DNA of 64,000 nt from positions 96,001 through 160,000 of the forward strand of contig CAWFAD010000012.1 in assembly GCA_963813815.1 (NCBI GenBank). Reading direction: 5' to 3'. Positions within the stretch are counted from its first letter, which is position 1; each line of letters begins with the position of its first letter. The stretch comes from an uncultured bacterium (GTDB lineage Bacteria; Krumholzibacteriota; Krumholzibacteriia; Krumholzibacteriales; Krumholzibacteriaceae). The notes beneath the pieces were generated by a model, which saw nothing but the letters and a program-made list of their open reading frames with translations, had not been told where the DNA came from and made no database searches. Positions 44,984 to 64,000 of the stretch are shown piece after piece. The position numbers and the translations under genes are program-made.

Positions 44984-45779
44984 CACGACCACCTCCTCCC
45001 CGCCCCCGCCGAGGCGCTCAAGCCCAGCGACGGATTGACGCCCCATGAGAAACCGAGGAGCAGACGCCGTATCTCGACGATGACACCGCACGTGAGCTCG
45101 CCCGATCGAAAAGCGTATGCCGCTCGAACGCCGATCCGCTCTCCGAGCGGCACGATCATGTCGATCCGGTATTCCGTCTCGACGCCGTCCGGCGATGAGC
45201 GGCTCAAGCCGGCCATGAGCTCGCCGATGGAGATGCCGCACGACCATGCGCAGCGCCCCGGCGTCGCGCATCTCTCTCGACGAGCGGAAGGGCGAACGTC
45301 GCCGAGACCGAGCGCGCGCGCCGAAAGCCGACGAGCAGACGAAGCGACGACGAACGCTCCGCCGGGAACCCTTCGGCCCGGCGCCGCAGCGTAGCGAGCT
45401 CGGCGCCCGCGATGATTCCCGGAATGGGGACGGGAATCGCGGCCGCGCACGATAGAAGGTCCTCCCGGTAGAGCGAGTGCGAAATCCTTCTCCAGTCGAG
45501 GCCGACCATGACGACGCCGCCGTCGATCTCGCCCTCGAGGCGGGAGGAGACGAGCCCCTCGATCGAGTACGGATTCGCGATCGACAGGAAGACGGACGCG
45601 GCCCTCGCCGTGTCGCGCCCGGCGGCGAAGCGCGGTCCGGAACATGCGCGAAACGGCGTCTCGCCCCATGATGCGGCGGCCCCGGCGCTCAGGCCGACCG
45701 CGAGCGTCTGCCCGGCGACGAGCGCCCGGACGAGGGTCAGCCGCCGGCCACGACCACGCAGGCCTTCTCTCTTCTGCAT
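44980..45779 (-). CDS. Putative small outer-membrane beta-barrel protein; one frameshift
   Basis: GGAGG SD plus ATG 45779. The N-terminal frame (PYSIEGL...YREDL) joins the C-terminal frame (FSWGVNPSLGLS...W) across a G4 run at 45256-45259. Confidence 0.5.
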
Positions 45780-47440: not shown

Positions 47441-47536
47441 CACATCCACCACCCTTCACCTGAGCCGGAGAGGATTGAAACCGATCGCGCGCCGGATTGC
47501 AAGAAAAATCGAGATGCGGGGCCGCTCGCCGCGCGG

Positions 47537-48811: not shown

Positions 48812-50964
48812 ACGAGCCCCCATGCCTTTCGTACGATCCACTCGGCCCCGAGCAGCGCCACAAGGCCGAGAAATCCGAACGCGCTTCCGCGCAGATCGCG
48901 TGCGCTCCGTATCTCCACGCTTTTTCCCGGGAGATTCCATACCGCGGCGGCCGAGTCGAGCGCGGAGCGCTCGACGCACGCCCCCTTCGTCTCCGCCGCC
49001 GTTCTCGCCAGCAATGCGCGGTCCGGGGATGTGTCGAGAAACTCGACCGAGAGCGGCTCGACGGAAAACTCCACCGGCCTCGACGCGCCGAGGGCTCCCG
49101 GCGGCGACTCGACGGCGACGGCGCTGTAGTCTCCGGGCGCGAGCCCGTCGAGCGCCGCCCGAAAGATGCCCGGACGCCGTGGATCGGGCTCGAAGAGGAA
49201 CGTCGCCTCGACGACCGGGGAATCGCCCGATGGGCGGCGCAGCTCGCCGCGAAGACCTTCCGGCGCCTCCCGCTCGCCGATCGAGGCGGTGAAGCGGATA
49301 CGATCCCCGCTTCGATAGAGAGCGCGATCGGCGTCGAGCGCTATCGGCGGCGATTTCGCGCCTTCGGCCAGATATTGAACGATGCCGCCGAGGAGCGATT
49401 CATAGGCGCGGGCTCCCTCGTTCCCGGCGAGCCTCCAGCGCCACAGGGGAAATCCGAGGACGGCGGCCGAGAGCCCCTTGCCCCGGCGGTCGATCACGAG
49501 AAGCGATCCCCCACCGGCCCCCTCGAGAGCGAGCGGAGATCGCGCCCCGGCGCTCGGCGCGAGACCGGCGATCCGCGCGGGAAAGGGCGGCAGCGCGGCG
49601 ATCGAACCGGCCGGGACGAGCGACGCGGCGGAGGGCTCGACGGCGGCCTCCTCCGGGGCCTTCACGAACCACTCCGCGTACTCGACCCGGATCGCTCCCG
49701 CGCGGCGGACGGGAAGCACCCGCTCGAGAAGCGCGAAGGAGGCCTCGCGCGCCATCGGCGACTCCTCCCCGGCGAGAAAGAGAACGCTTCCCCCCTCCTC
49801 CACGTATCGCTCGAGCGTCTCGACGTTTTTCCGTTCGCCGAAGAGCCCTCCGTCGTCCCCCACGATCACGAGATCATAGGGGGCGAGACCGCGGGAGGAG
49901 GCGGGGAACGTCCAGGACGCTCCTCCGGGATCGAGCACGAGGCTCGAGCCCGATATCCGGAGCGCGATGTCGGCGTCGAGGCGCTTCGAACGCCTCGCAA
50001 GATCCCGCAGAAACGCAGTGTTCCAGTCGGCGAGCTCGTCGATCGAGAGCACGCGAATCTTTTCCCCGCGAACGTCGAGCCGAATCGATTCGACGTTGTT
50101 GCCCGGATCGTCCCCGGCCCGCGCGGGGATCGCCTCGATCGTGAGACGGCGCGATCCCTCCCGTTCCGGGACATAGTCGAAGACGGCGCTCAGGTCCTCG
50201 GCTTCGAGCCGCGCCGCGAGCCGGACGATTCCTTTCGGCTCTCCGTCCTCGAGAAGGCGGGCTTCGATCGCGCTTCCGCGGCAGCCGGCCGTCCGGATGA
50301 CCGCCTCCACCCGGAGCGACGTGCCTCGATAGGCGATTCGGTCGGCGACGATCTCGGCGATCGATACCTCCACGCCCCGCGCGGTGTCGCCGTACCCGAC
50401 GGCGAAAACGGGCGCGCCCGAGGCTCCCGCGCGAGAGGCCATCCCTCGCGTCACGCGGCCGTCGCTGAGAAGCACGATGGAAGCGATGCCGCCCGGATGC
50501 CGCCGGCGCGCGGCCTCGAGAGCGCCTCCGATGTCGGTGCCGTCGCCATCCGGCGAAATGCTGTCGGACGATAGAGGGGATGAGGCGAGCGCCTCCGCGA
50601 AGGGCAGCACCTCCACCTCGGCTCCCCTCCTCTCGAGCGCGGCCCGCACGATCGACGCGTCCTCGAGCGCCGCCTCGATCCTGCTCCGTTCCCCTTCATC
50701 CCGGATCCCCATGCTGCGCGACCGGTCGATCAGCACGAGCACGAGCGGCCGCCGCCCTTCCGTGCGGGACGAGACGAAGGCAGGATTGACGACGAGAAGC
50801 GCGAGCATCAGGAAGCTCCCCGCGCGAAGCGCGCGGAGAAGCGCCCGCCGCGCGGGAGGAAGCGGAGGCGCCGTGCGACGATACGCCGCGAGGGAATAGA
50901 CGACGAGACCCGCGGCGAGAACCGCCGCCCAAACGTCGAACCTCATCGCAAAATCCAATTGCAT
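48808..50964 (-). CDS. Membrane-anchored vWA-domain protein with glutamine-amidotransferase-like region
   Basis: N-terminal TMs; MIDAS DRSRSM...TDIGGAL...LLSDG; YDLVIVGD...GGSVLF; C-terminal TM ending EWIVRKAWGLV. Confidence 0.8.
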   Translation of the reverse strand: MQLDFAMRFDVWAAVLAAGLVVYSLAAYRRTAPPLPPARRALLRALRAGSFLMLALLVVNPAFVSSRTEGRRPLVLVLIDRSRSMGIRDEGERSRIEAALEDASIVRAALERRGAEVEVLPFAEALASSPLSSDSISPDGDGTDIGGALEAARRRHPGGIASIVLLSDGRVTRGMASRAGASGAPVFAVGYGDTARGVEVSIAEIVADRIAYRGTSLRVEAVIRTAGCRGSAIEARLLEDGEPKGIVRLAARLEAEDLSAVFDYVPEREGSRRLTIEAIPARAGDDPGNNVESIRLDVRGEKIRVLSIDELADWNTAFLRDLARRSKRLDADIALRISGSSLVLDPGGASWTFPASSRGLAPYDLVIVGDDGGLFGERKNVETLERYVEEGGSVLFLAGEESPMAREASFALLERVLPVRRAGAIRVEYAEWFVKAPEEAAVEPSAASLVPAGSIAALPPFPARIAGLAPSAGARSPLALEGAGGGSLLVIDRRGKGLSAAVLGFPLWRWRLAGNEGARAYESLLGGIVQYLAEGAKSPPIALDADRALYRSGDRIRFTASIGEREAPEGLRGELRRPSGDSPVVEATFLFEPDPRRPGIFRAALDGLAPGDYSAVAVESPPGALGASRPVEFSVEPLSVEFLDTSPDRALLARTAAETKGACVERSALDSAAAVWNLPGKSVEIRSARDLRGSAFGFLGLVALLGAEWIVRKAWGLV

Positions 50965-51096: not shown

Positions 51097-51534
51097 CTAG
51101 CCGTTCTTCGTCCCGTGCGTGCTGCCGACCTTGGCGTCCGCCGGGCTCCCCGATTTATCGGAGCCGGCGTCGCCGGCGGCCTTGCCGAAGGCCTTGACCG
51201 CTTCCGCAACGGTGTCGAAGCTCTGGAGGATCGTCTGGAACTCGAGCAGCTCGAAAACCTCGTACACGTCGGCGACCATGGAAGCGAGCTTGAGATCGCC
51301 TCCGTTTTCACGGATCGATTTGATCTCGCTGATAAAGATGCCCCAGCCGGCCGACGATATGTAGTTCACGCCCGCGAGGTCGATGACGATGTTGAAGCGG
51401 TTCTTCTTGAGCAGTCTCTTGAGACTCTCCTCGAGCTCCGCCGACGTCGTGGTATCCACGAACCCCTGCACGGAAAGAACCGACACGTCCGGGTTTTCCT
51501 CGGGCTTCGAGAACGATACGTTGATCCCTTCCAT
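51097..51534 (-). CDS. STAS-domain anti-sigma factor antagonist
   Basis: GFVDTTTS, DLAGVNYISSAGWGIF, VYEVFELL. Confidence 0.9.
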   Translation of the reverse strand: MEGINVSFSKPEENPDVSVLSVQGFVDTTTSAELEESLKRLLKKNRFNIVIDLAGVNYISSAGWGIFISEIKSIRENGGDLKLASMVADVYEVFELLEFQTILQSFDTVAEAVKAFGKAAGDAGSDKSGSPADAKVGSTHGTKNG

Positions 51535-51559: not shown

Positions 51560-51928
51560 CTATGATGCTTTCGTGTTTTGAGACGCCGCGAACGCGGCGA
51601 TTGCTTCCTCGCGCGTTCCGTAGGGCCGAAGCAGCGTGCTGAACTCGAGGAGCTCGAAAACCTCTCTCACGTCCGGATGCATGGCCGTGAGCTTGATGTC
51701 TCCCCCCCGCTGGCGTATCCCCTTGATCTCGCCCACGAAAATCCCCCAGCCCGCGGAGCTGATGTAATTCACCTCGCTGAGATCGGCGACAATGCGAACG
51801 GTGTTCGACGCGACGAGCTCGTTGAACGTATCCTCGAGAAACTGCGCCGTGCCCGAATCGATGATGCCACCGAGCTTCAGGACGACGACGTTCTCCACGT
51901 ACTCTTCGCTAATAACGAGCTTGTCCAT
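51560..51928 (-). CDS. STAS-domain anti-sigma factor antagonist
   Basis: GIIDSGTA, DLSEVNYISSAGWGIF, VREVFELL. Confidence 0.9.
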   Translation of the reverse strand: MDKLVISEEYVENVVVLKLGGIIDSGTAQFLEDTFNELVASNTVRIVADLSEVNYISSAGWGIFVGEIKGIRQRGGDIKLTAMHPDVREVFELLEFSTLLRPYGTREEAIAAFAASQNTKAS

Positions 51929-51973
51929 TATCTGGCCAGTCCTCTCCTCTGCCCCACCCTGAATTAGCAAACT

Positions 51974-53092
51974 TCAGTCCAATAATGCCTTTAAAAGGAT
52001 AAATATTCCCTGCTTGTCGTTCTCGGACAACCGCAGGTTTTTCTGCGCCTTCTGGTAATTCCCGTTGATTTCGAGCGCCTTTTGAAAGGCCTTGTTGGCC
52101 CTGTCCATGAATATCTTGCATTTTGCGGTATAGAGGATGCCGAGGCTGTTGTGCCCGTCGGCGAAGGTCGGGTTCTGGTCGACGATCTGGCGCACGCTCT
52201 CGAGATGCCCCTCGATATCCTCCTCGCGTAGATTTTCGCCGTCGTACAGAAGCATCAGGTAGAGGTCGAGCACGATGTCCTCGATCCCGCCCCGCTCGGA
52301 GCGGCCACCGGCGCTCTCGAGGGCCTCGTACGCGAGCTCGTACTCCTTGCCCCGAAACAGGCTTCTCGCCTCCTCGACGCGGTTGGAGGCGAGGTACGGA
52401 TCGAGCTGCACGGCCCGGTCGAGATTGCCGAGAAACGCCGTATCGAGATCGCGCGCGAGCTCGTAATCCTCCTTGATGATCGTGTTGAGGAGAAAGGCAC
52501 GTGCGAGGTTGAGGTAGGGCTCGCCGTAGTAGAGATTGAGCCCGATGGCCCGGTTGAAGCAATCAATCGCGGCGCGGCATCGGCGCTGTTTGAGGTGTAT
52601 CACGCCGAGCAGGTTGTGCAGATCGGGGTACTCGGGATTGATCGCGAGGCCGTTTTCCACGGCCTTTATGGCCGCGTCGAATTTTCCGGCCTCGAAGCTG
52701 CACGAACCGATGATCAAATGAGGAAGGGAATCCTTGTTTCCCTTTTCGATCGCATGCCGCGCCTCCTGGATCGCCTCGTCCAAGAGATGGCGCCTCGCGA
52801 GCGCCTGCGCCACGCGCAGATGCGGCTTCGGATCGTCGCTCTGGCGCACGCGGTCGGTCACGCCGAGCAGAATGAGGAAGCGCCGCTTGTTCTCGAGATG
52901 CGCCTCCTTCGTGGCCCGGCGCAGGGCTTCCGCGGGCGCCTTGCCGTCGATGGCGACGTCCGTCGTATCGAAGGGAACGCCGTTCCTGAAGAACGAGCTC
53001 TGAATGATCCCCTTTTGAGGAAGCATGCTCGTCTGCAGAAAATACTTCCGCCCGGCGTGATCGATTTCCTCTCTCAGCTCGAACCCCGTCAC
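51974..53092 (-). CDS. Cytoplasmic TPR protein with an uncharacterised N-terminal domain
   Basis: NPEYPDLHNLLG, NPTFADGHNSLG, AFQKALEINGNYQKAQKNL. Confidence 0.88.
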   Translation of the reverse strand: MTGFELREEIDHAGRKYFLQTSMLPQKGIIQSSFFRNGVPFDTTDVAIDGKAPAEALRRATKEAHLENKRRFLILLGVTDRVRQSDDPKPHLRVAQALARRHLLDEAIQEARHAIEKGNKDSLPHLIIGSCSFEAGKFDAAIKAVENGLAINPEYPDLHNLLGVIHLKQRRCRAAIDCFNRAIGLNLYYGEPYLNLARAFLLNTIIKEDYELARDLDTAFLGNLDRAVQLDPYLASNRVEEARSLFRGKEYELAYEALESAGGRSERGGIEDIVLDLYLMLLYDGENLREEDIEGHLESVRQIVDQNPTFADGHNSLGILYTAKCKIFMDRANKAFQKALEINGNYQKAQKNLRLSENDKQGIFILLKALLD

Positions 53093-53150: not shown

Positions 53151-53927
53151 TTACCCTTCCCTCTCCCCGCCGGCGCAGCGTGCGCCGGCGCGATCGAGGC
53201 CGAGGATCTCCTCGGTGAGATGGTAATAATCGAACGCTCCGCGCGAAAGCGGCGCGTGTTCGAATATCGTCTTCTGCCGCCCCGGGGCCTCCCGGATCGC
53301 CTGATTCGCCCTGATGACCGTTTTGAGGAGCCGGCCTCCGAAGCGCTCGCGAAGGCTCTCGAGCATGCTGTGCGCGAGCCGGGTGCGCGAATCGTAGAAC
53401 GTCGGCAGCAGCCGAATCGCAATCGGTCCGCGGCCGTTCCACGCCTGGATTTCCTCGACGATCTCGGCCGTCTGCACCGCGCCCGCCTCCGCCAGATAAT
53501 CCATCGAGACGGGGATGATCACCTCGTCGCAATAGGCCAGCGCGTTGATGTTGATGAGGTTCAACGACGGCGAGCAATCGCAGATCACGTAATCGCACCC
53601 CTTGAGCTGTTTCAGCGACTCGGAGAGGCGCTGCTCGCGGTTGACGCGCGAGCCGAGCGTGAGCTCGACCTCCGCGAGGCGCCGGCCGCCCGAATCGATG
53701 AAGAAGAGATTGTCGCGCACCTGGAGAATCTCGACTTCTCCCGAGGTCAGAAGGTCCGCCAGCCCGCGCTCCCCGCGGACGCCGAGGCTGAGGGCCACGC
53801 TCCGCTGCGGATCGCAATCGATGAGGAGCACCCGCTTCCCCGTGAGCGAGAGACCGTGCGACAGGCACAGCGCGGTCGTCGTCTTGCCGGTTCCGCCCTT
53901 CATGGTCATCACAGCGTACTTTTTCAT
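53151..53927 (-). CDS. ParA/Soj-family ATPase (orphan)
   Basis: KGGTGKTT deviant Walker A, IDCDPQ, CDCSPS, PTFYDSRT, IREAP. Confidence 0.92.
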   Translation of the reverse strand: MKKYAVMTMKGGTGKTTTALCLSHGLSLTGKRVLLIDCDPQRSVALSLGVRGERGLADLLTSGEVEILQVRDNLFFIDSGGRRLAEVELTLGSRVNREQRLSESLKQLKGCDYVICDCSPSLNLININALAYCDEVIIPVSMDYLAEAGAVQTAEIVEEIQAWNGRGPIAIRLLPTFYDSRTRLAHSMLESLRERFGGRLLKTVIRANQAIREAPGRQKTIFEHAPLSRGAFDYYHLTEEILGLDRAGARCAGGEREG

Positions 53928-53949: not shown

Positions 53950-56900
53950 CTACTTCTTGCCCCGCGGCTTGCGATCCGAGTTGCGCAGCCGTTTGCCGTA
54001 TTCGTCCCAGCCTATCCGCGTGATGCGCTTGTCTTTGTCTTCGCGGACGTCCGTTCGCTTCTTGAAATCGATGAAAATCACTTTCTCCGGATCCGCGACC
54101 CGCTCGAGCGGTTCGAGCGGAGCGATCTTCGAGGCGCCCAGAAGCGCGTCCGCGAGATCCTGCTTCCGGTCCTCGGGCTCGGGGGCGGGCGCTCCCGCGG
54201 GCGCTCCGGGACCGGGCGCCGCCTCGGGCGGCGCGAAATCCGCGGCGCCTTTCGCCGGCGCCAGCTCCGCGAGCGCCATTTCGAGCGTTCCGTAATGCGG
54301 AATGAGCGGCTCGAAACCGAGATCGCGGAATATATTGAGAATGCTCGAGCTCATGCCGGCGATGGCGATGCGCCCGCCGGTTTCGCCGAGCTTCTGAAGA
54401 TACCTGATGATGATGCCCCATCCCCCGCTCGATATGTACACCATGCGTTCGACGTCCAGAATGAGATTGAGCGGCCGCTCATCCGCGCGCCGCGAGAGCT
54501 CCGCCTCGAACGCTTCGGCCGTCGAGGAATCGACGGCGCCGTCGATCGTCACCACGACGGTCCCTCCGACCGCGCGGGCGTCGCCTGCGGAAGCGATCGC
54601 GAGCGGCGTCCCGGCGCCCTCGGTCCGCTCCGCGCGGGGAGCCGCGGCGGCCTCGTCCGGAGGCTCCTCGTCGAGGATCTCCCCATCCGCGAGCGTCGGC
54701 GCCTCGTTCTTGAAATCCTCTATCGCCTCGGCCAGAACGCCGAAGGAGCGCATGATCGAGTCGAACCCGAGCAAGCTATAGATGCCGTCGACTTCCTGAT
54801 CCATGCCGAAGATCTTGAGATCGCCGCCCCGCAGTCTGATGTCCTTGATGCGCGAGGCGAACACTCCCCAGCCGCTCGAGCTCACGTACTCGACGCGCGA
54901 CATATCGATGACGATCTTCACCGCGCCGCGGTCGACGAGCCCGTCCAGAACGGAGCGGAGGTTCACGCAGCTCACCGTGTCCACGACCCCGTCGAGGTAC
55001 AACACGGTGATTTCCCCCTGATCTCCGACCGTCCCCGCCTCGATCTTGAGGGCGGCCCACGACGAATCCGTCTCCGGGACCTCTCCGGGCCCCGACGCGC
55101 CGGAAGCCGCCGTGGACTGGCGCGTTTCGAGCGTTCTGAGCGGGGCCGGGCGGGCCGATTCCCTCTCGAGTCGGCTCCGCCGCTCCGCGAGCGGGAGCGA
55201 GATATAAGCCGCCGCTTCATCGACCGTCGCGAACTGGAGGATGATCTCCTGGAAGCCGAGGAGCTCGTAGATGTCGTACACCTCCGGCGACATGCTGGCG
55301 AGCACCACGTCCCCCTCTCCCTCGCGAAGCGATTTGACCCGCCCCGTGAAGATTCCCCAACCGCCGCTCGATATGTACATCACCCCGGCGAGATCGACGA
55401 TGATCTTGCGGTATCCGTACTCGTGCACGCTTTCGAGAATTCCCTCGAGCTCTCCCGCCGACGAGGAATCGAGGTGGCCGGCCACGTGCAGCACCACCAC
55501 GTCCCCCGCGAGCTCCTCCGATGTGACCTCGATCGCCCGTCCTTGGCCGGTCCCGAACGACTCGCGGGCGCCCCGCCGGCGCAGCGGCGGCGCGCTCTCG
55601 CGACGGAGGGACGGCGCCGCAGCGGCCGGACGAGCTTCGGGAACGCTCGCCGGCGCCGCTTCCTCCGGGGCGGCTTCCGCGGGGGCCTGCGGCGCCCCGG
55701 CTGCCTCGGCGGCCGCCTCGGCCGGACGGCCGTGCGCGGCGACGAGCTTCTTGAACTCCTCGTCGGAAATGAACCGGTTGCGGCGCAGATACTCGAGCCG
55801 CATTTCGTAGGTGTTGAGCCGGATGCGCTTGAGCTCGTCGTAAACGATGGCGGGCGAGAGCAGGTCGCCCTCCGCCTTTCCCTCGTTGAACGCCGCGGTG
55901 ATCTTCTTCGCGCCGTAGCGGGGATGGTCGCGAATGATCCCGAGAAGCCCCTTCCGCTGCTCGATGCTCACGCGCCGGATATCGACCTCGCGTCGCAGCG
56001 TCTTGTCCTGCAGCCCCCGCTCCCCGAGCTCCTCGAGGCGCTTCTTGTATCGATAGTAGGTCGACGGCGACACCCGCATCATCCGGCAGGCCTCGGCGAC
56101 CGCCACCCCCTGCACCTCGACGAGATCGAGGAGCTTCCGCCGGATGCCGTAGAGCACCTCGTCCGCCTGGAGCTTCTCCTTGATTGCGACCACGGTGATG
56201 TCGTCGTTCTGCGGCTGATCGCCGGTAAAGCTCTTGATGTCGTCGTTGAGGCGATCGATGAACTCCTGCGGGGCGAGACGTCCGCACTGCTTGATGAGCC
56301 TGATGAGACGCTCCTCGCCGTATTGGTTGCGAGCGCCGTTCATCGCCTCCGTCACGCCGTCCGTATAGATGACGAGCATGTCGTCCTTCTTGAGCTTGAT
56401 CTTCTCGACGTCGATCGAGCGGCGGAAGAGCGTGTCGTCGGGCAGCTTGATGCCGACCGGAAATCCTCGCGGGTTGAGAAAATACGTCTCGTCCGTCTCG
56501 GCGCGGTAGAGGATCATCGGATTGTGGCCGGCCGAGGCGTAGCTGATGATGCGGTTTTTCGAATCGAGGATCGAGTAGAAGATCGTAACGAACATGCCTT
56601 TTTTCATGTCTTCCGTCACGAAATCGTTCATGCGCGCCATGACCTCGGCGGCCGAGTGGTTGCCCCGCGCCTCCATGCGCAGAGCCGTCCGGATCATCGT
56701 CATAACGAGCGAGCCGGGCACTCCCTTGCCGGAAACGTCCGCGACGACCACCCCGAGCGTGTCGTCGTCGACCCGCACGAAGTCGTAGTAATCGCCGCCG
56801 ACCTCCTTGGCGGCCCGGTAGAGGCTCGCGATGTCGTAGCCGCCGATCGTGGGGACGCGCTTCGGGAGCAGCGTCTGCTGGATTTCCTGCGCGACCTGCA

Positions 56901-58182
56901 TCTCCTTGTGGAGCCGCTCCTGCTCGACGACGTTCTTCTGGGCCTCGCGGAACTTCGACGTTATCTCGTTGAAGGCCCGGGCGATCTCGCCGATTTCCTG
57001 CGGCCCCGTGATTTGGATCTCGTCGCTGAGCGAGCCCTCGCCGATGGCGCGCACGCCGTCGGTGAGCGCCTGGATCGGGCGGACGAAAATGGCCACGAGC
57101 AGGTAGCTGAGCGCCACCCCGGCGGCGAATACGCCGACGAGTATGAGCGTCATCATGGGCCGCGGGTCGATGATATCGCCCGTCGCGATCGCCTCGGAGA
57201 TGCCCACGACGACGCGTCCGATCTCGGAGGTCTGCCCCCGCTCGGAATCGGTCAGGTAAACGGCCTGATGAAACTCGCGAATGAGACCGAGGCTGTCGTG
57301 GGCCACCGTCCGGTACGCGGCGCCGCGATCGAGCGAGCGCACCTCGGCGGGAATCGCGTACGTCGTGAGAAACTCGTCCTGCTGGTTCGAAGCGAAGATG
57401 CGCCCGTCGGCGTGCACGACGCGGATATACTTCACCTCGGGATACCGCTTTATCTGCCGCGGAATCGCATCCGTGCTGAGCTCGAGCCCGCTCACGTCGT
57501 AGGGATCCTTCGTGAGCGCGCCGACGCTCAGGCTCGCGATGGTTTCGGCGACCCGCTTGCGCTGCAGCCAGGTGTCGGCGAATCGGTCGCGCAGCTCGTT
57601 CGTCTGACGGTAGAGGAGAATCGCCCAGAGGAACACGACGAGGCCGAAGAGGCCGAGCGTCGTGCGCAACGCGAACTTGAATCGGAGCGTCGAGGTCCAC
57701 TTCGGCCGCCTGATCGAGCCGAAGAGCTGCGGCCGCGCGGCGGCCGCGGCCGAGTTTTTTACCATGTAGAGGCGATTCCCCGTCGGCGAAGCCGAATAGC
57801 TCAAATTGTCCATGAGGCGGTTCATCAGGTAGATGCCGAGACCGCCCTTCTTGCCGATTTCGACATAATGGTCGAGGTCGGGCTCCTTGACCTTGGACCA
57901 GTCGAAGGGCTCGCCGCGGTCGAAGATGCTGATCTCGACCGTGCCCGGACCCGCCTGAACGTCGATCCGGATGTCTCCGGCTTTCTCTTTGTACGCGTGT
58001 TTGATGATGTTCGTGCATGCTTCATCGACGGCGAGCTTCGTGTTGTTCGTTTCGCCCTTCGAGAATCCCGCGCGATCGCAGATGCCGGCGATGAAATCCC
58101 GGACCTCGCTCAGGTTGTTCTCGTCCGCGGGAACCTCGAGATGGAACGTCTCGCGCTCCCGCATGCGCTCGCCGCGTTTCAC
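53950..58182 (-). CDS. Multidomain partner-switching protein: RsbW-type HATPase - TM - extracytoplasmic domain - TM - HAMP - SpoIIE/PP2C - HTH - 3x STAS
   Basis: DEACTNIIKHAY/DRGEPFD/GGLGIYLM; two TMs; RPIQAL...EIGEIARAFN; VGGDYYD/DVSGKG/YTDGVTEA/DDITVV; AEACRMMRVSPSTYYRY; three Y(I/V)SSxGWG STAS motifs. Confidence 0.9.
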   Translation of the reverse strand: MKRGERMRERETFHLEVPADENNLSEVRDFIAGICDRAGFSKGETNNTKLAVDEACTNIIKHAYKEKAGDIRIDVQAGPGTVEISIFDRGEPFDWSKVKEPDLDHYVEIGKKGGLGIYLMNRLMDNLSYSASPTGNRLYMVKNSAAAAARPQLFGSIRRPKWTSTLRFKFALRTTLGLFGLVVFLWAILLYRQTNELRDRFADTWLQRKRVAETIASLSVGALTKDPYDVSGLELSTDAIPRQIKRYPEVKYIRVVHADGRIFASNQQDEFLTTYAIPAEVRSLDRGAAYRTVAHDSLGLIREFHQAVYLTDSERGQTSEIGRVVVGISEAIATGDIIDPRPMMTLILVGVFAAGVALSYLLVAIFVRPIQALTDGVRAIGEGSLSDEIQITGPQEIGEIARAFNEITSKFREAQKNVVEQERLHKEMQVAQEIQQTLLPKRVPTIGGYDIASLYRAAKEVGGDYYDFVRVDDDTLGVVVADVSGKGVPGSLVMTMIRTALRMEARGNHSAAEVMARMNDFVTEDMKKGMFVTIFYSILDSKNRIISYASAGHNPMILYRAETDETYFLNPRGFPVGIKLPDDTLFRRSIDVEKIKLKKDDMLVIYTDGVTEAMNGARNQYGEERLIRLIKQCGRLAPQEFIDRLNDDIKSFTGDQPQNDDITVVAIKEKLQADEVLYGIRRKLLDLVEVQGVAVAEACRMMRVSPSTYYRYKKRLEELGERGLQDKTLRREVDIRRVSIEQRKGLLGIIRDHPRYGAKKITAAFNEGKAEGDLLSPAIVYDELKRIRLNTYEMRLEYLRRNRFISDEEFKKLVAAHGRPAEAAAEAAGAPQAPAEAAPEEAAPASVPEARPAAAAPSLRRESAPPLRRRGARESFGTGQGRAIEVTSEELAGDVVVLHVAGHLDSSSAGELEGILESVHEYGYRKIIVDLAGVMYISSGGWGIFTGRVKSLREGEGDVVLASMSPEVYDIYELLGFQEIILQFATVDEAAAYISLPLAERRSRLERESARPAPLRTLETRQSTAASGASGPGEVPETDSSWAALKIEAGTVGDQGEITVLYLDGVVDTVSCVNLRSVLDGLVDRGAVKIVIDMSRVEYVSSSGWGVFASRIKDIRLRGGDLKIFGMDQEVDGIYSLLGFDSIMRSFGVLAEAIEDFKNEAPTLADGEILDEEPPDEAAAAPRAERTEGAGTPLAIASAGDARAVGGTVVVTIDGAVDSSTAEAFEAELSRRADERPLNLILDVERMVYISSGGWGIIIRYLQKLGETGGRIAIAGMSSSILNIFRDLGFEPLIPHYGTLEMALAELAPAKGAADFAPPEAAPGPGAPAGAPAPEPEDRKQDLADALLGASKIAPLEPLERVADPEKVIFIDFKKRTDVREDKDKRITRIGWDEYGKRLRNSDRKPRGKK

Positions 58183-60089
58183 CGCGCACCCCCCGCTCCG
58201 CCGCTGTTCTGAAGGCGCTTGCGGGCCTCCCCGATGTTCCTCAGCACGCTCTCGTTATCGGGATCGATTTCGAGAATCCGCTGCCACCGCTCGACGGCCT
58301 TCAGGTAATTCCCGTCCGTGAAATGCTTCATTCCCTCGAGATAGAGAGCGCGCACCTCCGCCTTTTCGCCGTCGCTGAGCGGGGTCATGCGCCGCTCGGC
58401 GCGCAGCAGCAGGGTTCGCGCCTCCGCGTGCTTCGGATCGATGGAGAGCAGCTCCCTGATCTGTTTCACGGCGTCCGGATACCGCCCCTCCCCGAACGAC
58501 CTCACGGCGCCGTCGTAGAGCTCCGCGACCCGGAGCCGCTTGGCCGTCGTGAGATAATCCCGGCTCATCTCGTCGACTCGCTCGTTCAGCCGCTCCACGG
58601 CTGCGAGCGCCTCGGCGGATTCGGGCACGATCGTCCGGACCATATTCCACTCGCCGAGTGCGGCTGCGAGCTGTCCCTGCCGCTCGAGATCGAGGGCCCG
58701 CTCGCGGTGCTGCGCCGCGAGGCCATCGAGCTTCTCCTCGGTCGCTCCGAGATACTCCGCCGCCTGCCCGTTCTCCGGATCGATCTCGAGGACACTCCGC
58801 CATTCCGCGCGGGCGCGGATATAATCTCCCGTGCCGTAGTATTCGAGTCCGAGACGGAAGTGACGGTTCGTGAGGGCCGCTTTTTCGGCGTCCTTCGTCC
58901 GCTGCTCTTCCGCTGCGAGAACGTCGCGCTCGACCACGCTGATGGTGTCGGCGACGGCCCGGCTCGTCGGATCGTACTCGAGGGCGATTCTGAGCTCGTC
59001 GAGCGCCTTCGCCGGCTGCCCATCGCGCCGGAACTGCTCGGCGGAGGCAATGTGGCCGGCGATCCTCCTCGTGAGCATCTGCTGGATGCGACGTTCTTCG
59101 TCGGCGAGGCGCCGCTCCTCGCGCAGCCGTATACGGTCGTCGATCGAGGATCCGATCCGGGCGGAGAGCGAGAGCGGATGCGCGCTTCCGGCCTCCTCGC
59201 GGCTCAGATAGCCGTAATCGAATCCGAAGCCGTGCCAGCCGACGCCGACCCCCGCCGTGATGCTTTGCCCGTCGTATCCGGCGCGGATCGCGAGAAAGTC
59301 CCGGAACCGGTACTCGGCCCCGGCCCGCACCTTCGTGTCGCCGCGCGCGGGAAGATCCATCTGCGCCGCCAGCACGAGCGCGGAGCTCTTTCCCAGCGCG
59401 CGGGCGTAGCCGGCGCCGATCATCACGGTGCGGTCCACGGGCTCGCTCACCGAGACGAGCTTGATCTCCGCGCCGACGATATCCTGAAGGTTGCACCCGA
59501 CGCGGAGGCCCTCCAACCAGCGCGGCTGGTACACGAATCCGACGTCGAGCCCCGTGCCGGTATCCGAGAAATCTCCGACGCGCTGGCTCAGCATCTTCGC
59601 CGACGAGCCGACGGTGACCGCGCCGGCGTAACGCCACGGCAGCGTGTACGCGTAGGCGACGATCATCTGACTCTCGCGGTAGCTGAGCTCGCCCGTTTCA
59701 CGGCTCCACTCGTCGAACCCGCGGATGCCCCCCGTCCCCGCCGTCATGAAGCCCGCGCCGAGGGCGCCGGCGGAGATCGTCGGATACACGAAACCGAGAA
59801 AGTCGTATCCCGTGTCGCTCCATCCGGAAAAGAGCTGCGCGTGGCTCGCGAGCACCGCGGTGTACCGGTTGAGCGCGAGGGCGGCCGGGTTGTAGAACAA
59901 CGCCGACGCGTCGTCGCCCACGGCGGAGAAGGCTCCCCCCATGGCGATCGCCCGCGCCCCCGCCCCGACGGCAAAGATCGAGCTCGTGCCGCCCGTTCCC
60001 TCCTGCGCCGCGACGCTCGACACGAGCATCGCCGAGAGCAGGACGGCGGTCAACGCCGCATACCGATGGTTCGTTCGCATACCCATCAC
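58179..60089 (-). CDS. PorV/PorQ-like outer-membrane barrel fused to C-terminal TPR repeats
   Basis: Signal peptide; GAGARAIAMGGAF.AV.DDASALFYNPAAL; DVGFVY, IRAGYD, FDYGY; TPR units (WRSVLEIDPEN, WQRILEIDPDN). Confidence 0.85.
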   Translation of the reverse strand: MMGMRTNHRYAALTAVLLSAMLVSSVAAQEGTGGTSSIFAVGAGARAIAMGGAFSAVGDDASALFYNPAALALNRYTAVLASHAQLFSGWSDTGYDFLGFVYPTISAGALGAGFMTAGTGGIRGFDEWSRETGELSYRESQMIVAYAYTLPWRYAGAVTVGSSAKMLSQRVGDFSDTGTGLDVGFVYQPRWLEGLRVGCNLQDIVGAEIKLVSVSEPVDRTVMIGAGYARALGKSSALVLAAQMDLPARGDTKVRAGAEYRFRDFLAIRAGYDGQSITAGVGVGWHGFGFDYGYLSREEAGSAHPLSLSARIGSSIDDRIRLREERRLADEERRIQQMLTRRIAGHIASAEQFRRDGQPAKALDELRIALEYDPTSRAVADTISVVERDVLAAEEQRTKDAEKAALTNRHFRLGLEYYGTGDYIRARAEWRSVLEIDPENGQAAEYLGATEEKLDGLAAQHRERALDLERQGQLAAALGEWNMVRTIVPESAEALAAVERLNERVDEMSRDYLTTAKRLRVAELYDGAVRSFGEGRYPDAVKQIRELLSIDPKHAEARTLLLRAERRMTPLSDGEKAEVRALYLEGMKHFTDGNYLKAVERWQRILEIDPDNESVLRNIGEARKRLQNSGGAGGAR

Positions 60090-63000
60090 TTCGCCACGGC
60101 GATCTTGAAGAGCGCCGATTGCGAGCCAGCCTCGACCTTGCAGAGATACACGCCGTTTCTCACCGTTTCTCCGCGGGCGTTCCGCCCGTCCCAGGGGATC
60201 TCATGCATGATCCCGTCGGCGGAGCCGGTGCCGCCCTCCTCGCCCGAGGCGATTTCCTTCGTCCAGACGAGAATGCCGGCGAGATCGTAAATGCGGATCG
60301 ATACCGCCGCGTCCTCGAGCAGGAAGTAGCAAATGCGCGTTTCCTGCGATCCCGCGGCGAAGGGGTTCGGATAGTTGTGGACATAATCCTCGAAGCGCGC
60401 GCTCAGAACGGTCAGCGGACCGCTCAGGAACGAGCCGGCGATGTCCCCGCCCTGATCGTCCACGACGCCGACGCGCGATCCCGCGCCGCCGCCCTCGAGC
60501 GTGATCGAGAAAACGACGTCGGCGCTCTCTTCGATTTCGAAGCGAATCTCCCCTGCCGGGGCGTTCGCCGCGATATCGGCGGTGAGGAGCAGCGTGTCAG
60601 CGGCGCCGGGAACGACCTCGAACGCATGTCCCGCCACGATCGGCACCGGGTTCGCCTCCGAGACCGCCGCCTCGAAGCGAACCCCTCCCGCCACGAGCGC
60701 GACGCCCGACACCCGCCGCGAAGGCGGCGAGACGAGCCGGCCGGTCCCGTCCTTGATCGCCACGTAGAGCGTATCGAGCCCGATCGTGTAACCCGACGTG
60801 TTCTCGAACTCGGCGCGCATGATCGGCACGCCGGCGGCCCCCTGGGGAACGACGACCGGCGGGATGGTATCGAGGGAGGAGAGGTTCAACATGCGCACGG
60901 CGCCCGTCTCCGTCTGCACCGGCAGGAACACTTCGCCCGTCGTCACCGCGCAGGCGAGGTTCGTGTTGACGTCCTCCGCCAGCGGCTCGACGAACCTGAT
61001 CTGCAGGTTCCCGGGGGACGTGGGCTCGGCGGGCGCGCGCACGTTCCACGCGACGGGCTCGCCCGGATAGAACGGCTTCCGGTAGGTCTCGCCCGCTCCG
61101 TCGAGATCGTAATTCTGGCCCGAGGGCAGGACGAGCTCGATCCGCGCTCCCGCCGTGTCGACGCCCGCCTCGCCCGCATTGGCCGCCGTCGCTTCGATCG
61201 TGAACGACTGATTCACGGACAGGATCCCGTCGAGCGCCCCGTCGGGACCCGATATCCGCCCGGCGAGGGCGAGAGCCGCTTTTTCGACCGCGCGCACGGC
61301 GAACACGACGCGGCGAACGGGGAGCCGCTCGCCCGAGTTGGCGTCCACGCCTCCCGCCCGTCCGACGAGCGTGTCGACCGGAGCGGCGATCGAGGGCGCC
61401 CGAACGGTCCAATCGAGCGTTACGAGCTCTCCGGCGCCGGCTCCGACAAACTTGATCATGTCCCCCGCGACGGCGTACCCGGCGGGCGCCGAGAGCTCGG
61501 CCCACACCGAATCGGCGTTGACCGAGGGAACGAGCGCCACGCGCGCGACGAACTCCTGATCCGTCGAGAGAACGCCGTCGACGGCTCCCGCGGGGGCCGC
61601 CACGGACACCGAGCATTCGGCGATGCCTCCGGCCTCTTCCGTACGCGCGACGATGCGCGACTCGGCGGTTTGGATTGCCGCGGGCGAGCCGATATTGATG
61701 TCGTTCGGAACGGAGCTGATCGACGCCCGCAGGGTGTCGAGCGACGGAGCCGCCGGCGCTACCAGCGTCCACTCGAGCGGCGCGCCCGCGTCGAACCGCC
61801 TCGTGAGCGGATCCGCCGGATCGGCGAGGCTCATCGAGACCGGCAACGCGAGCGTCACCCTGCCCGTCGTATCGATCGCGGCTTCTCCCGCGTTTTCGAC
61901 GAGAACGGTCACGACGAAGATCTGACCGGTCGAAAGCGTGTCGTCGATCGCCCCCGCCGGCGAGGTGATGGAAGCGCCGCACGCGAGGAGCGCGGCGGTT
62001 TCAATCCTCAGATTCTCGATCGACTCGACGGCCTCCGCCGGCGTCACGGGCTCTCCCGTGTTGACGGAAACCGCCTTCACGATCGAGGCGCGCAGATATT
62101 CCACGGCGCTCGACGGCGCCGCCGTCACCGCGTAGACGAAATCCCGTTCGGTTCGCGACGGCATGTAGGCGAGAGAGTCTCCCTCGACGAGGGTGCCCGA
62201 AACGCCGCTCGTCGCGAGCCTCACGAGAACGCTGTCGAGATCGTCCCCGCCCGTATTCTCCACCCGCACCGTGAGGTTGAAGGTCTGGCCGGTGTTGACG
62301 ATCGACGTGTTCGCGAATGAGGCGTTGTTCGGCGCGTCGCTCGTCACGGCGACTATTCTGAGCCCGGAAGGAGGCCGCACGAGCACCGATCCGCTCCCCG
62401 AGGCCGGCGGTCGCGGCGCCTCGGGCTCGTTGCCGTCGATCCAACCGAGCGTGGCGGCGATATCGACCGAGCCGGTATCGCGGCCCGTCGCGGCGATTCG
62501 ATAGAGAAGCGTATCGGCCGCGCCTCCCTCGAGCACGAGCGGCGAGGCTCCCGACACGAAGGTCTCCGGCGCGATGACGAGGTACCCTCCGACCGAAACG
62601 CCGTCGATGGAGAATGCCAGATCGTCCGAAGCGGCGGCGTCGATCTCGAGCGGCGCCTCGCCGTCGTTCCGCACGCCGACATCGATGGTCCACTCGATGG
62701 TCTGTCCGGCGTTCACCGCCTCCTGCGAAGGGGTGACGGCGGTCACGACGAGCGCCGCCGGTCTCTGTATCACGGCCAGCGCCGTATCATCCACGGCGGC
62801 GTCGAACAGCACGTAATCGCTCTCACCCGAGTTGGCGTCGACGGCCGAGCGGATGCGCGCCGTGAAAATCTCCGAGCCCTCGCCATCCGCGGTCACGAGA
62901 AACGTGTCGGAAGCCGACGCGAACCCGGCGATGGCATCGATGAAGACGAGGGTGTCGGCGATGGCGGACGAGCCCGAACCCTCGAGCGCGACGCCGACGT

Positions 63001-64000
63001 TCTCGACTCGCGCCTCGCCGCCGTTCGCAACTTCGGCGACGACGACGAACTGCTGCCCCGAGTCGACGTACGGCGCGCGCGGAGCCGCGGTGGCCGCGAG
63101 CGCGACCGCCAGCCGGGCCTGCGCCTGCACGCGGATCGAGCCCGAACCCGAGCCGTCGAGCCGCGTGTCGTAGGAACGATGAACGCCGTTGTTGTTCTCC
63201 ACGAGCTCGACGTCCGCATGGAGCTCGATGTCGGCGCCCGCGGGAATCTCCGGCGTCGGAGAAACGGAGAACACGAGGTGGCGGCATTCGCCGCCCGGCA
63301 GATCGAGCCCCCCCTCGACGAACGCCGGCGGCCGCGCATGGGCGAGCGGCAGACCCTCGTCGCGGTAGACGCGCGCGCTGTCGGGGATGAGCGTGAGATC
63401 AGCCTCCCCCGCGTTGCAGACCTCGCACGCGATCTGCCACGGGGTCGTTTGCGCCGAGGTCACGGTCGCCCGCGAGGGCGCGCTCGAAACGACGGCGGGA
63501 TCGCCGGGCAGCTCGACCATGACGTGGCTGAAACCGCCGCTATAGGTATCGTCAGAGACGGTGAGATTGCTGTTGACGTCGGTGCCCGTCACCGTTCCGT
63601 TCACGAGGGCGATGCCCGGGGTCGAACCCGTGGAGGTCACCGTGAAGAGGAGACTGTCGACCGCCCCTCCCGGAAGAATGGCGCCTCCGATGCCCGAGAG
63701 CGCCGCCGGGCGTACGACGGTATATTCATACGTCCGGTCTCCCACCCCGACGATCGTAAAGGTGAGGAAGGTCTTCGCCGCCGCGAGATCGAGGGAAACG
63801 GACGCCTCGCCGCTGTTCCGGAGCTTCATCCATACGTTCCACGGCTCCGTCTGGGAGCGGGTCACCGATTGAGGCGTGACGATGCCGCTGATACCGAGCT
63901 GGGGCGCCTGCTCCACGAGAACGGAATCGGGCGAGAGCGGCAGCACGGTCGAGAACGGATTGCCGTTCTCCTCCCCGACGAGCCGGATGAACGCGGCGTG
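60086..64000 (-). CDS. Giant secreted/surface protein with Ig-like repeats and a FlgD/T9SS-like C-terminal domain (5' end outside the window)
   Basis: At least 1286 aa, open towards the window edge; repeated xxQxF/W...NxGEA units; C-terminus HNYPNPF...IRIYDLAG...WDGRN..G..V.NGVYLCKV. Confidence 0.88.
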   Translation of the reverse strand, partial: HAAFIRLVGEENGNPFSTVLPLSPDSVLVEQAPQLGISGIVTPQSVTRSQTEPWNVWMKLRNSGEASVSLDLAAAKTFLTFTIVGVGDRTYEYTVVRPAALSGIGGAILPGGAVDSLLFTVTSTGSTPGIALVNGTVTGTDVNSNLTVSDDTYSGGFSHVMVELPGDPAVVSSAPSRATVTSAQTTPWQIACEVCNAGEADLTLIPDSARVYRDEGLPLAHARPPAFVEGGLDLPGGECRHLVFSVSPTPEIPAGADIELHADVELVENNNGVHRSYDTRLDGSGSGSIRVQAQARLAVALAATAAPRAPYVDSGQQFVVVAEVANGGEARVENVGVALEGSGSSAIADTLVFIDAIAGFASASDTFLVTADGEGSEIFTARIRSAVDANSGESDYVLFDAAVDDTALAVIQRPAALVVTAVTPSQEAVNAGQTIEWTIDVGVRNDGEAPLEIDAAASDDLAFSIDGVSVGGYLVIAPETFVSGASPLVLEGGAADTLLYRIAATGRDTGSVDIAATLGWIDGNEPEAPRPPASGSGSVLVRPPSGLRIVAVTSDAPNNASFANTSIVNTGQTFNLTVRVENTGGDDLDSVLVRLATSGVSGTLVEGDSLAYMPSRTERDFVYAVTAAPSSAVEYLRASIVKAVSVNTGEPVTPAEAVESIENLRIETAALLACGASITSPAGAIDDTLSTGQIFVVTVLVENAGEAAIDTTGRVTLALPVSMSLADPADPLTRRFDAGAPLEWTLVAPAAPSLDTLRASISSVPNDINIGSPAAIQTAESRIVARTEEAGGIAECSVSVAAPAGAVDGVLSTDQEFVARVALVPSVNADSVWAELSAPAGYAVAGDMIKFVGAGAGELVTLDWTVRAPSIAAPVDTLVGRAGGVDANSGERLPVRRVVFAVRAVEKAALALAGRISGPDGALDGILSVNQSFTIEATAANAGEAGVDTAGARIELVLPSGQNYDLDGAGETYRKPFYPGEPVAWNVRAPAEPTSPGNLQIRFVEPLAEDVNTNLACAVTTGEVFLPVQTETGAVRMLNLSSLDTIPPVVVPQGAAGVPIMRAEFENTSGYTIGLDTLYVAIKDGTGRLVSPPSRRVSGVALVAGGVRFEAAVSEANPVPIVAGHAFEVVPGAADTLLLTADIAANAPAGEIRFEIEESADVVFSITLEGGGAGSRVGVVDDQGGDIAGSFLSGPLTVLSARFEDYVHNYPNPFAAGSQETRICYFLLEDAAVSIRIYDLAGILVWTKEIASGEEGGTGSADGIMHEIPWDGRNARGETVRNGVYLCKVEAGSQSALFKIAVAK

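What the first reader, a model, noticed from the sequence alone, without database searches (positions are those of the whole stretch)
53950..58182. A whole partner switch in one polypeptide: kinase, phosphatase and three STAS substrates
Seen: an uninterrupted 1410-aa ORF with an N-terminal RsbW/SpoIIAB-type HATPase (~57760-58182), two TMs around an extracytoplasmic domain, HAMP, a PP2C/SpoIIE domain (~56170-56900) and STAS domains at ~55200-55540, ~54710-55050 and ~54260-54600, separated by Ala/Pro/Glu linkers. The kinase motifs (N-box, DxG, GGLG) and phosphatase metal-binding Asp motifs look intact. Established: in Bacillus these functions are separate proteins (RsbW, RsbU/SpoIIE, RsbV). Inference: opposing enzymes tethered to their own substrates could form an intramolecular, multi-site, ultrasensitive switch gated through HAMP. 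The kinase sits before TM1 and the phosphatase after TM2, both on the cytoplasmic side.
Basis: partly seen in the sequence, partly recalled or inferred. Interest (0 to 1): 0.88.

Follow-up and report, generated by a model that had tools for sequence, protein, structure and literature searches.

The report
Fused kinase-phosphatase sensor beside giant adhesin
One 1,410-residue protein, predicted to span the inner membrane, joins a serine-kinase domain, the opposing phosphatase domain, a likely DNA-binding module and three copies of their likely target domain, and its core recurs in five little-studied bacterial phyla, next to a giant surface-protein gene that it likely controls; fusing kinase, phosphatase and target in one chain was already known from tuberculosis bacteria.

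Summary
The ORF and every domain are real, and 114 of 120 homologues share the full architecture. The headline is not new: M. tuberculosis Rv1364c already fuses kinase, PP2C and STAS, and SypE fuses kinase and PP2C.

The three tethered STAS domains are a lineage-specific add-on. The conserved core is kinase–TM–Cache-like–TM–HAMP–PP2C plus a transposase/paired-like double HTH (240 of 240 homologues), with a separate free STAS gene downstream that is better conserved than any tethered copy.

The HTH profile hits, nearly always once per genome, 60/61 Calditrichota, 76/81 KSB1, 52/128 of the own phylum, and some Eisenbacteria and Zixibacteria. The gene follows a giant Ig-repeat T9SS-type adhesin gene and a PorV-like barrel with TPRs. 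A sigma54-type promoter precedes the adhesin in 19 of 20 relatives, and no sigma70 gene is in the operon.

Best reading: a SypE-like envelope sensor that sets STAS phosphorylation and likely controls the adhesin; activity, input and output are untested. This scan has reported the family before (16 windows in 15 genomes). Verdict: new variant of a known kind.

The parts
53950..58182 (-). 1410-aa fused kinase / sensor / HAMP / PP2C / double HTH / 3x STAS protein (P0001)
57754..58155 (-). RsbW/SpoIIAB-type serine kinase domain (res 10-143)
   Evidence: Pfam HATPase_c_2; RsbW 6m36 E 1.8e-18; motif counts
57613..57681 (-). predicted TM1 (res ~168-190)
   Evidence: hydropathy, model
57163..57612 (-). 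predicted periplasmic Cache-like sensor domain (res 191-340), the most variable folded domain (32% mean identity to the query)
   Evidence: sCache_3_2 E 8.8e-5, below cut-off
57091..57156 (-). predicted TM2 (res ~343-364)
56923..57096 (-). HAMP domain and start of the signalling helix (res 363-420)
56173..56910 (-). PP2C/SpoIIE phosphatase (res 425-670); best PDB match is the Rv1364c PP2C domain
55774..56166 (-). bipartite (double) helix-turn-helix resembling transposase N-termini and paired domains (res 673-803)
   Evidence: IS481 model positions 2-109, E 2.7e-14; model; fold searches weak; present in 240 of 240 homologues
55198..55515 (-). tethered STAS 1, motif YISSGGWG, S939
54703..55050 (-). 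tethered STAS 2, motif YVSSSGWG, S1102
54268..54564 (-). tethered STAS 3, motif YISSGGWG, S1252; fastest-evolving copy (44% mean identity)
53986..54009 (-). C-terminal W-x-x-Y-x-x-x-L motif that co-occurs with the ParA gene; likely ParA-binding
53151..53927 (-). ParA/Soj-like ATPase with deviant Walker A (KGGTGKTT)
51974..53092 (-). 372-aa TPR protein with an unnamed N-terminal domain and no evident signal peptide; its gene lies upstream of the adhesin in Calditrichota/KSB1
51560..51970 (-). free STAS protein a (YISSAGWG)
51097..51534 (-). free STAS protein b (YISSAGWG), the best-conserved STAS and likely main substrate
58179..60089 (-). PorV/PorQ-family outer-membrane barrel with C-terminal TPR domain; overlaps the start of P0001 by 4 bases
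   Evidence: NF033709 108.5 bits over cut-off 90
60086..64000 (-). 3' part of a 5006-codon Ig-repeat (Big_1 / Invasin_D3) surface-protein ORF with FlgD_ig C-terminal sorting domain; it runs to G000 C12:171106, and its sigma54-type promoter lies at C12:171015, outside the window
48808..50964 (-). vWA-domain membrane protein; frequent downstream neighbour, not universal

Best explanation
The protein joins a serine-kinase domain and a PP2C phosphatase domain around a predicted periplasmic sensor, and it likely sets the phosphorylation of the STAS proteins of its own operon, chiefly the free STAS, to likely control a giant surface adhesin encoded upstream. Shown: domains, intact motifs, operon order, co-occurrence with the PorV-TPR barrel, a conserved sigma54-type promoter, and no sigma70 gene in the operon. 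Inferred input: the barrel likely holds the adhesin by its C-terminal domain, and its TPRs, if periplasmic, would contact the Cache-like domain; HAMP would then gate the phosphatase against the kinase, as REC does in SypE. Inferred output: the dephospho- or phospho-STAS acts on a partner rather than releasing a sigma factor, and the double HTH (also fused to the free STAS in four phyla) likely binds DNA. The three tethered STAS copies are a later addition in part of this phylum that likely buffers or tunes the response, and the tail likely docks the ParA-like ATPase.
For: Catalytic residues kept in 104-106 of 106 rows. Free STAS most conserved. PorV-TPR and the enzyme's HTH occur in the same genomes of the own phylum: 53 versus 52 of 128, the one difference being G063, whose HTH is degenerate but present. 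Adhesin and barrel lie directly upstream in 19 of 20 Calditrichota/KSB1 loci. Sigma54-type site at the adhesin start in 19 of 20 own-phylum regions, with 1 other hit in those 800 kb of strand, and near the operon start in 7 of 10 KSB1 loci. rpoN, 13 strong enhancer-binding-protein matches and SprA are in the genome. None of 13 sigma70 matches lies in the operon; one lies beside a separate PP2C-kinase-STAS cluster on C5. Precedents: SypE/SypA, where STAS is the downstream output (PMC10120452 passages); SiaABC controlling aggregation (PMC7647112 abstract); cognate barrel shuttles linked to their cargo genes (PMC12618676 abstract).
Against: No activity, binding partner, ligand or DNA site has been shown. 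No palindromic operator emerged from 19 upstream regions. The sigma54-type site was not found near the operon start in any of 10 Calditrichota loci, so that link is not universal. Gene order and co-occurrence among kin are few independent events. HTH fold matches are weak (best Foldseek E 0.11; best Z 6.3). Genomes without this HTH still hold weaker STAS matches (7 such genomes among 128, apart from G063).
Confidence: 0.5

Rival explanations
1. One reading: a self-contained intramolecular multi-site switch in which the tethered STAS domains are the main substrates and give ultrasensitivity.
For: All three serines are invariant in 40 of 40; each position forms its own group in the tree, so the copies are old and kept (quick tree; support 89, 100 and 85); long variable linkers; Rv1364c modifies its own STAS (PMC7693655, PMC9138534 passages).
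Against: Two free STAS genes are kept beside the 3xSTAS form. Relatives in four other phyla and in family f8 carry the core with no tethered STAS. STAS3 is diverging (44%).
Confidence: 0.2
2. Positioning scaffold: the HTHs bind the nucleoid non-specifically or act as protein docks (enzyme HTH2 pairing with the HTH on the free STAS), and with ParA they place the sensor and the adhesin export site in the cell; phosphorylation controls localisation, not transcription.
For: The tail motif occurs in 41 loci with ParA next and 0 without; 47 have neither and 4 have ParA without the motif. The second HTH alone is fused to the free STAS in 21 of 21 distant STAS proteins printed. No operator was found.
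Against: ParA is missing next to the gene in 47 of 92 loci while the HTH stays. The first HTH's recognition-helix residues (S705, T708, Y710, Y712) are kept in 94-104 of 106 rows, as expected of sequence-reading. The motif was defined after seeing the tails, and kin are not independent.
Confidence: 0.17
3. Canonical partner switch: the kinase is an anti-sigma factor for a sigma70-family factor encoded elsewhere, and the STAS domains are its antagonists.
For: Best profile match of the kinase is RsbW; STAS domains pass TIGR00377; the genome has 13 sigma70 matches; Rv1364c binds SigF in vitro (PMC7693655 passage).
Against: No sigma70 gene in the window's operon; the proximal promoter is of sigma54 type; the STAS loop departs from D-S-x-G-L-G to S-S-x-G-W-G; the kinase scores 91 bits against an RsbW cut-off of 145.
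Confidence: 0.12
4. Assembly or indel artefact, or insertion-sequence debris inside a signalling gene.
For: A few assemblies show the gene split (G134, L133, L152); the HTH resembles IS481.
Against: 114 of 120 homologues at 45-83% identity have the same single-chain architecture; HTH1 is as conserved as the kinase (74% versus 70%); no DDE domain; one copy per genome in nearly all hits.
Confidence: 0.01

Closest known systems
Mycobacterium tuberculosis Rv1364c (PMC9138534 and PMC7693655, passages; PDB 3ke6)
   Same: Kinase, PP2C and STAS on one chain; its PP2C domain is the top sequence and fold match.
   Different: Rv1364c is ordered PAS-PP2C-kinase-STAS with one STAS and binds SigF. This protein is predicted to span the membrane, has the kinase first, HAMP, a double HTH, 0-3 STAS and free STAS partners.
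Vibrio fischeri SypE-SypA (PMC10120452 and PMC8256260, passages)
   Same: N-terminal kinase, central input domain, C-terminal PP2C; adjacent free STAS; surface/biofilm locus; STAS as output with unknown target.
   Different: SypE's input is a REC domain; here it is TM-Cache-like-TM-HAMP. SypE as described has no HTH, tethered STAS, ParA or barrel partner.
Pseudomonas aeruginosa SiaABC(D) (PMC7647112, abstract)
   Same: PP2C (SiaA model E 2.7e-23 over residues 338-667) opposed by a kinase on a STAS-like target, controlling aggregation.
   Different: Separate proteins, a threonine target and a diguanylate cyclase output; no cyclase was recognised in this operon.
Bacillus RsbU/RsbV/RsbW and SpoIIE/SpoIIAA/SpoIIAB
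   Same: Same three domain families; phospho-serine position kept.
   Different: Separate proteins with a sigma70 target; canonical D-S-x-G-L-G loop versus S-S-x-G-W-G here.
T9SS cargo with a cognate barrel shuttle (PorV; PorP/SprF) (PMC12618676, abstract)
   Same: Large cargo gene linked to a barrel gene; SprA is present in the genome.
   Different: The barrel carries a ~300-residue TPR extension and is coupled to a signalling gene; it scores far below the PorV equivalog cut-off.
Bipartite DNA-binding domains of IS481/IS630, Mu, TnsB, Tc3 and the Pax paired domain
   Same: Two trihelical HTH units with a flexible linker; these lead both fold searches.
   Different: No catalytic DDE domain; fixed, essentially single-copy, and fused to a phosphatase and to a STAS. 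Fold scores are not significant, and the direction of descent was not tested.

Membership tests
RsbW/SpoIIAB-type STAS kinase | HATPase_c_2 fold with catalytic Glu, N-box, DxG and glycine lid | tested here: met
RsbW equivalog (anti-sigma B) | Score above the curated cut-off | tested here: not met
   NF003144 90.9 vs 145; TIGR01924 81.2 vs 155
RsbW/SpoIIAB-type STAS kinase | Phosphorylates a STAS serine; binds a sigma factor | not testable with these tools
   needs biochemistry
PPM/PP2C SpoIIE-type phosphatase | SpoIIE domain with metal-binding aspartates | tested here: met
   174.6 bits vs 25; five Asp in 106 of 106 rows
Anti-sigma antagonist STAS | STAS fold with the phospho-acceptor serine | tested here: met
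   TIGR00377 above cut-off; alignments to SpoIIAA, RsbV and TM1442
Anti-sigma antagonist STAS | Canonical Asp before the serine (D-S-x-G-L-G) | tested here: not met
   Asp in 0 of 121 motifs counted; Ser in 117, Asn in 3, Ala in 1
Rv1364c family | PAS-PP2C-kinase-STAS order | tested here: not met
   order from PMC9138534 passage
SypE family | Central REC domain between kinase and PP2C | tested here: not met
   no REC match at E 0.01
IS481-family transposase | DDE catalytic domain; full-length profile match | tested here: not met
   53.4 bits vs 224, profile positions 2-109 of 284 only
Paired / bipartite transposase DNA-binding fold | Two tandem trihelical HTH units | tested here: inconclusive
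   model pLDDT 87.8; Pax5 E 0.11, TnsB Z 6.3 at rmsd 11.6 over 124 residues
Paired / bipartite transposase DNA-binding fold | Sequence-specific DNA binding | not testable with these tools
   no candidate operator found
PorV/PorQ barrel family (upstream gene) | NF033709 above cut-off | tested here: met
   108.5 vs 90; PorV equivalog NF033710 38.2 vs 250 is not reached
T9SS type A cargo (giant gene) | C-terminal sorting domain and translocon in the genome | tested here: inconclusive
   FlgD_ig 29.2 vs 27; TIGR04183 22.8 vs 23; SprA above cut-off
Sigma54-dependent promoter | -24/-12 GG-N10-GC element conserved upstream, rpoN present | tested here: met
   the consensus itself is recalled
Sigma54-dependent promoter | Transcription start about 12 bases downstream, dependent on RpoN | not testable with these tools
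   no RNA holder listed

The most novel reading that the evidence does not exclude
A new trans-envelope signalling system of the wider FCB group: a giant adhesin held by a TPR-tailed PorV-like barrel signals through the periplasm to a membrane kinase-phosphatase, whose output is not a sigma factor but a transposase-derived, paired-like DNA-binding module carried on both the enzyme and its STAS substrate. It would be a bacterial parallel to the domestication of the Pax paired domain, fixed almost as a core gene in Calditrichota and KSB1, and feeding a sigma54 promoter in two phyla.
Probability: 0.2. Interest if true: 0.82.

Novelty: new variant of a known kind. Interest (0 to 1): 0.52.

Why it matters
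The fusion itself extends a known design. What matters is the conserved operon. A gene found, nearly always once, in 60 of 61 Calditrichota and 76 of 81 KSB1 genomes searched, and described in none of the papers my searches returned, points to a basic function in these sediment bacteria. If the HTH pair is the output, it would bear on a standing question, namely what STAS proteins act on in sigma-less partner switches such as SypA. It would also link T9SS adhesin display to cytoplasmic signalling. All domains are small enough to express and assay, and Calditrichota has cultured members (recalled; whether they carry the operon was not checked).

Tried and rejected

No RNA holder was listed. Logan contigs of three runs cover most of the ORF only in pieces.

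PDB sequence search of the HTH found nothing meaningful. The ESM Atlas gave no usable hit for the TPR protein's N-terminal domain.

A dyad search of 19 upstream regions found no palindromic operator. The top element, TTGC-N3-TTGC in 8 of 19 (shuffle maximum 6), overlaps what looks like a sigma70 -35 box. A first relaxed sigma54 pattern had wrong spacing and was redone.

The careful STAS tree did not finish; the quick tree has few columns and long branches, and 2 domains without a motif match were dropped. No order of duplication is claimed from it.

A 'GW' tail motif was tried first (33 of 45 ParA loci, 1 false hit) and replaced by [WF]xxYxxxL after viewing the tails; L152 (split gene) was left out of that count.

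The idea that HTH2 on the free STAS is a dock replaced by covalent tethering is weakened by family f8, which has neither.

Literature: searches listed no paper on this architecture or operon; subscription papers are largely outside the library, and no supplements were opened, so domain-architecture surveys could list it. The primary Rv1364c paper PMC2785613 is not held. Word searches of earlier scan notes that included sigma54 returned nothing, but they need every word to match.


Full report
Observation. The window holds one open frame at 53950..58182 on the minus strand, 1410 residues. Pfam and NCBIfam place, in order, an RsbW-type HATPase (17-142), a weak Cache match (207-295), HAMP (363-406), SpoIIE PP2C (472-668), HTH families (681-795) and three STAS stretches. 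Hydropathy gives two membrane segments. The AlphaFold2 model of residues 1-830 (pLDDT 87.9, pTM 0.64) shows the expected folds, and Foldseek returns Rv1364c, SiaA, RssB, SpoIIE, SpoIIAB and RsbW. Kinase motifs align with RsbW and SpoIIAB and are present in 104 of 106 rows; five PP2C aspartates are in 106 of 106. The STAS loop reads Y[IV]SSxGWG. Its second serine aligns with the serine after Asp in SpoIIAA, RsbV and TM1442, which is Ser58 of SpoIIAA (PMC8256260, first of five parts read, for Ser58; the position within the motif is recalled). All three serines are invariant in the 40 of 120 homologues aligned.

It is not an artefact. The best 120 hits of a region-wide search run from 100 to 45% identity; 114 have the complete architecture and 6 lack terminal domains. 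Source labels name Krumholzibacteriota, Krumholzibacteriaceae and Latescibacterota. A few assemblies are split (G134, L133, L152). Public contigs cover the ORF only in pieces and show one in-frame insertion.

With a Calditrichia query, 120 of 120 hits have HAMP-PP2C-HTH, 112 also the kinase, and none a tethered STAS; the HTH is in 240 of 240 proteins from the two searches. An HTH profile (A5) finds a match, nearly always one per genome, in 52 of 128 genomes of the own phylum (families f1, f2, f3, f7, f9 complete; f8 5/9; f4, f5, f6 none at that threshold), 60 of 61 Calditrichota, 76 of 81 in the KSB1 phylum, 13 of 51 Eisenbacteria and 12-13 of 51 Zixibacteria. Phylum names come from the titles of loci L004, L006, L007 and L010. 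I read the context of 20 of the Calditrichota/KSB1 hits: all 20 are PP2C-linked and followed by a free STAS bearing the second HTH, 19 have adhesin and barrel directly upstream, and 17 have the TPR gene further upstream. Three tethered STAS occur in part of the own phylum; family f8 has none. In a quick tree the tethered copies group by position while free STAS b has short branches (poorly resolved). Free STAS b is 62% identical to 21 distant free STAS proteins, against 41, 39 and 27% for tethered 1, 2 and 3.

The operon. In the window, upstream lie a 5006-codon ORF with 13 Big_1 stretches and a FlgD_ig C-terminal domain and a PorV/PorQ-family barrel with TPRs that overlaps the start of the fusion gene by four bases. 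Downstream lie a ParA-like ATPase, a TPR protein, two free STAS genes and a vWA protein. This order recurs in genome and metagenome loci. The barrel's TPR domain is found in 53 of 128 genomes, the same set as the HTH plus G063, whose HTH is degenerate; kin are not independent, so this is a handful of events. A tail motif [WF]xxYxxxL occurs in 41 loci with ParA next and in none without; 47 have neither and 4 have ParA only (n = 92; motif defined after viewing the tails). SprA is present.

Promoter. A -24/-12 element (NGGCA[CT]R-N4-TTGC; sigma54 consensus recalled; pattern chosen) sits at the adhesin start in 19 of 20 own-phylum regions. The 20th region did not contain a recognisable gene start, there was one other hit in those regions, and G000 has 30 such sites genome-wide. 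With a relaxed pattern (GG[CT]A), a site lies near the operon start in 7 of 10 KSB1 loci and 0 of 10 Calditrichota loci, against 26 hits in 1.44 Mb of strand overall. The genome has rpoN and 13 strong enhancer-binding-protein matches. None of 13 sigma70 matches is in the operon; one lies beside a separate PP2C-kinase-STAS cluster on C5.

The HTH. It matches the N-terminal third of the IS481 model (E 2.7e-14, far below cut-off) and folds as two trihelical units. Both fold searches are led by bipartite DNA-binding domains (Pax5, Mu, Pax6, TnsB; also IstA, Tc3) at non-significant scores. HTH1 is as conserved as the kinase (74% versus 70%). Of the best 150 representatives hit by the profile, 83 link to PP2C, 31 to a GT2 glycosyltransferase, 1 to STAS and 35 to none of these, by eye mostly fragments of those two families. 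A Pfam scan of 53 of the 150 showed no DDE domain at E 1e-6. Transposase origin is therefore inferred from resemblance only.

Mechanism. Shown: anatomy, intact motifs, operon, co-occurrence, promoter element. Inferred: HAMP gates the phosphatase against the kinase; the free STAS is the main substrate; the barrel holds the adhesin and signals through its TPRs; the HTH binds DNA; ParA docks on the tail. The readings are not fully exclusive: tethered copies are probably modified too.

Known systems. Rv1364c carries PAS, PP2C, kinase and STAS on one chain and modifies its own STAS (PMC9138534 and PMC7693655, passages). SypE is kinase-REC-phosphatase acting on SypA Ser56, with SypA downstream (PMC10120452, passages; PMC8256260, passages). 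SiaABC is a partner switch controlling biofilm (PMC7647112, abstract). T9SS type B cargo genes are often linked to cognate barrel shuttles (PMC12618676, abstract). The protein works like these but fails their defining domain orders. Searches listed nothing on this architecture; no supplements were seen.

Earlier scan notes. One search shows look-alike stretches in 16 windows of 15 genomes, with similar verdicts. These are unchecked AI notes and not independent support. My reading of the fusion and operon was stated before that look-up; the idea that the tail docks ParA appears in e1-5333488 and I tested it only by co-occurrence.

Verdict. Real, conserved and unstudied; a new variant of a known kind. 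Interest 0.52, carried by the operon, the near-core distribution, the HTH on both enzyme and substrate, and the sigma54-type promoter, not by the fusion.

Noticed in passing
P0305, P0313, P0336, P0339, P0374 and others: A second family uses the same double HTH: two tandem copies at the N-terminus of large GT2 glycosyltransferases (up to 2949 aa, some with BNR, MG2 or DUF2341 domains). 31 of the top 150 profile hits. No names or taxonomy were returned for the four looked up.
   Followed up: partly
G000 C12:171001-171015 (-), outside the window; L181-L200: Conserved sigma54-type promoter before the adhesin gene, and up to about 250 bases further upstream a sigma70-like element with extended -10, preceded by TTGC-N3-TTGC in 8 of 19 regions.
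   Followed up: partly
L003, L004, L007-L009, L221-L240: The free STAS carries a C-terminal copy of the second HTH in Calditrichota, KSB1, Zixibacteria and Eisenbacteria; a STAS-HTH fusion with a likely phospho-serine.
   Followed up: partly
P0224-P0240; L231-L240: The region after the HTH is a swap zone: a helical domain in some relatives found with the Calditrichia query, a terminal TPR in KSB1, STAS x3 here, a duplicated HTH in P0219.
   Followed up: no
window 51974-53092; L201-L220: The 372-aa TPR protein has an unnamed ~80-residue N-terminal domain (no Pfam or Atlas hit) and moves from downstream of ParA to upstream of the adhesin in other phyla.
   Followed up: partly
G203 C35:682-1080 and C23:51212-51418: A second full HTH match and a half match in a 1993-codon frame; possibly a paralogue or another fusion partner.
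   Followed up: no
L003 / G201: Record titled Ignavibacteria, yet its phylum search drew the same genomes as the Zixibacteria genome G205.
   Followed up: yes
L011, L012: HAMP-PP2C genes followed by STAS (YVSSAGWG in L011) without HTH, and in L012 a separate kinase gene and an upstream TPR gene: possibly a simpler, unfused relative.
   Followed up: no
window 43436-47452: Lamin-tail/FlgD_ig protein followed by two ORFs without Pfam match (45204-45815, 43436-45271) that look by eye like outer-membrane or competence-type proteins; many other C-terminal-domain cargo-like ORFs occur in the genome.
   Followed up: no
L003 14286-19799 and similar loci: In Zixibacteria-type loci the operon is followed by genes that look by eye like exopolysaccharide functions (deacetylase, tyrosine autokinase).
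   Followed up: no
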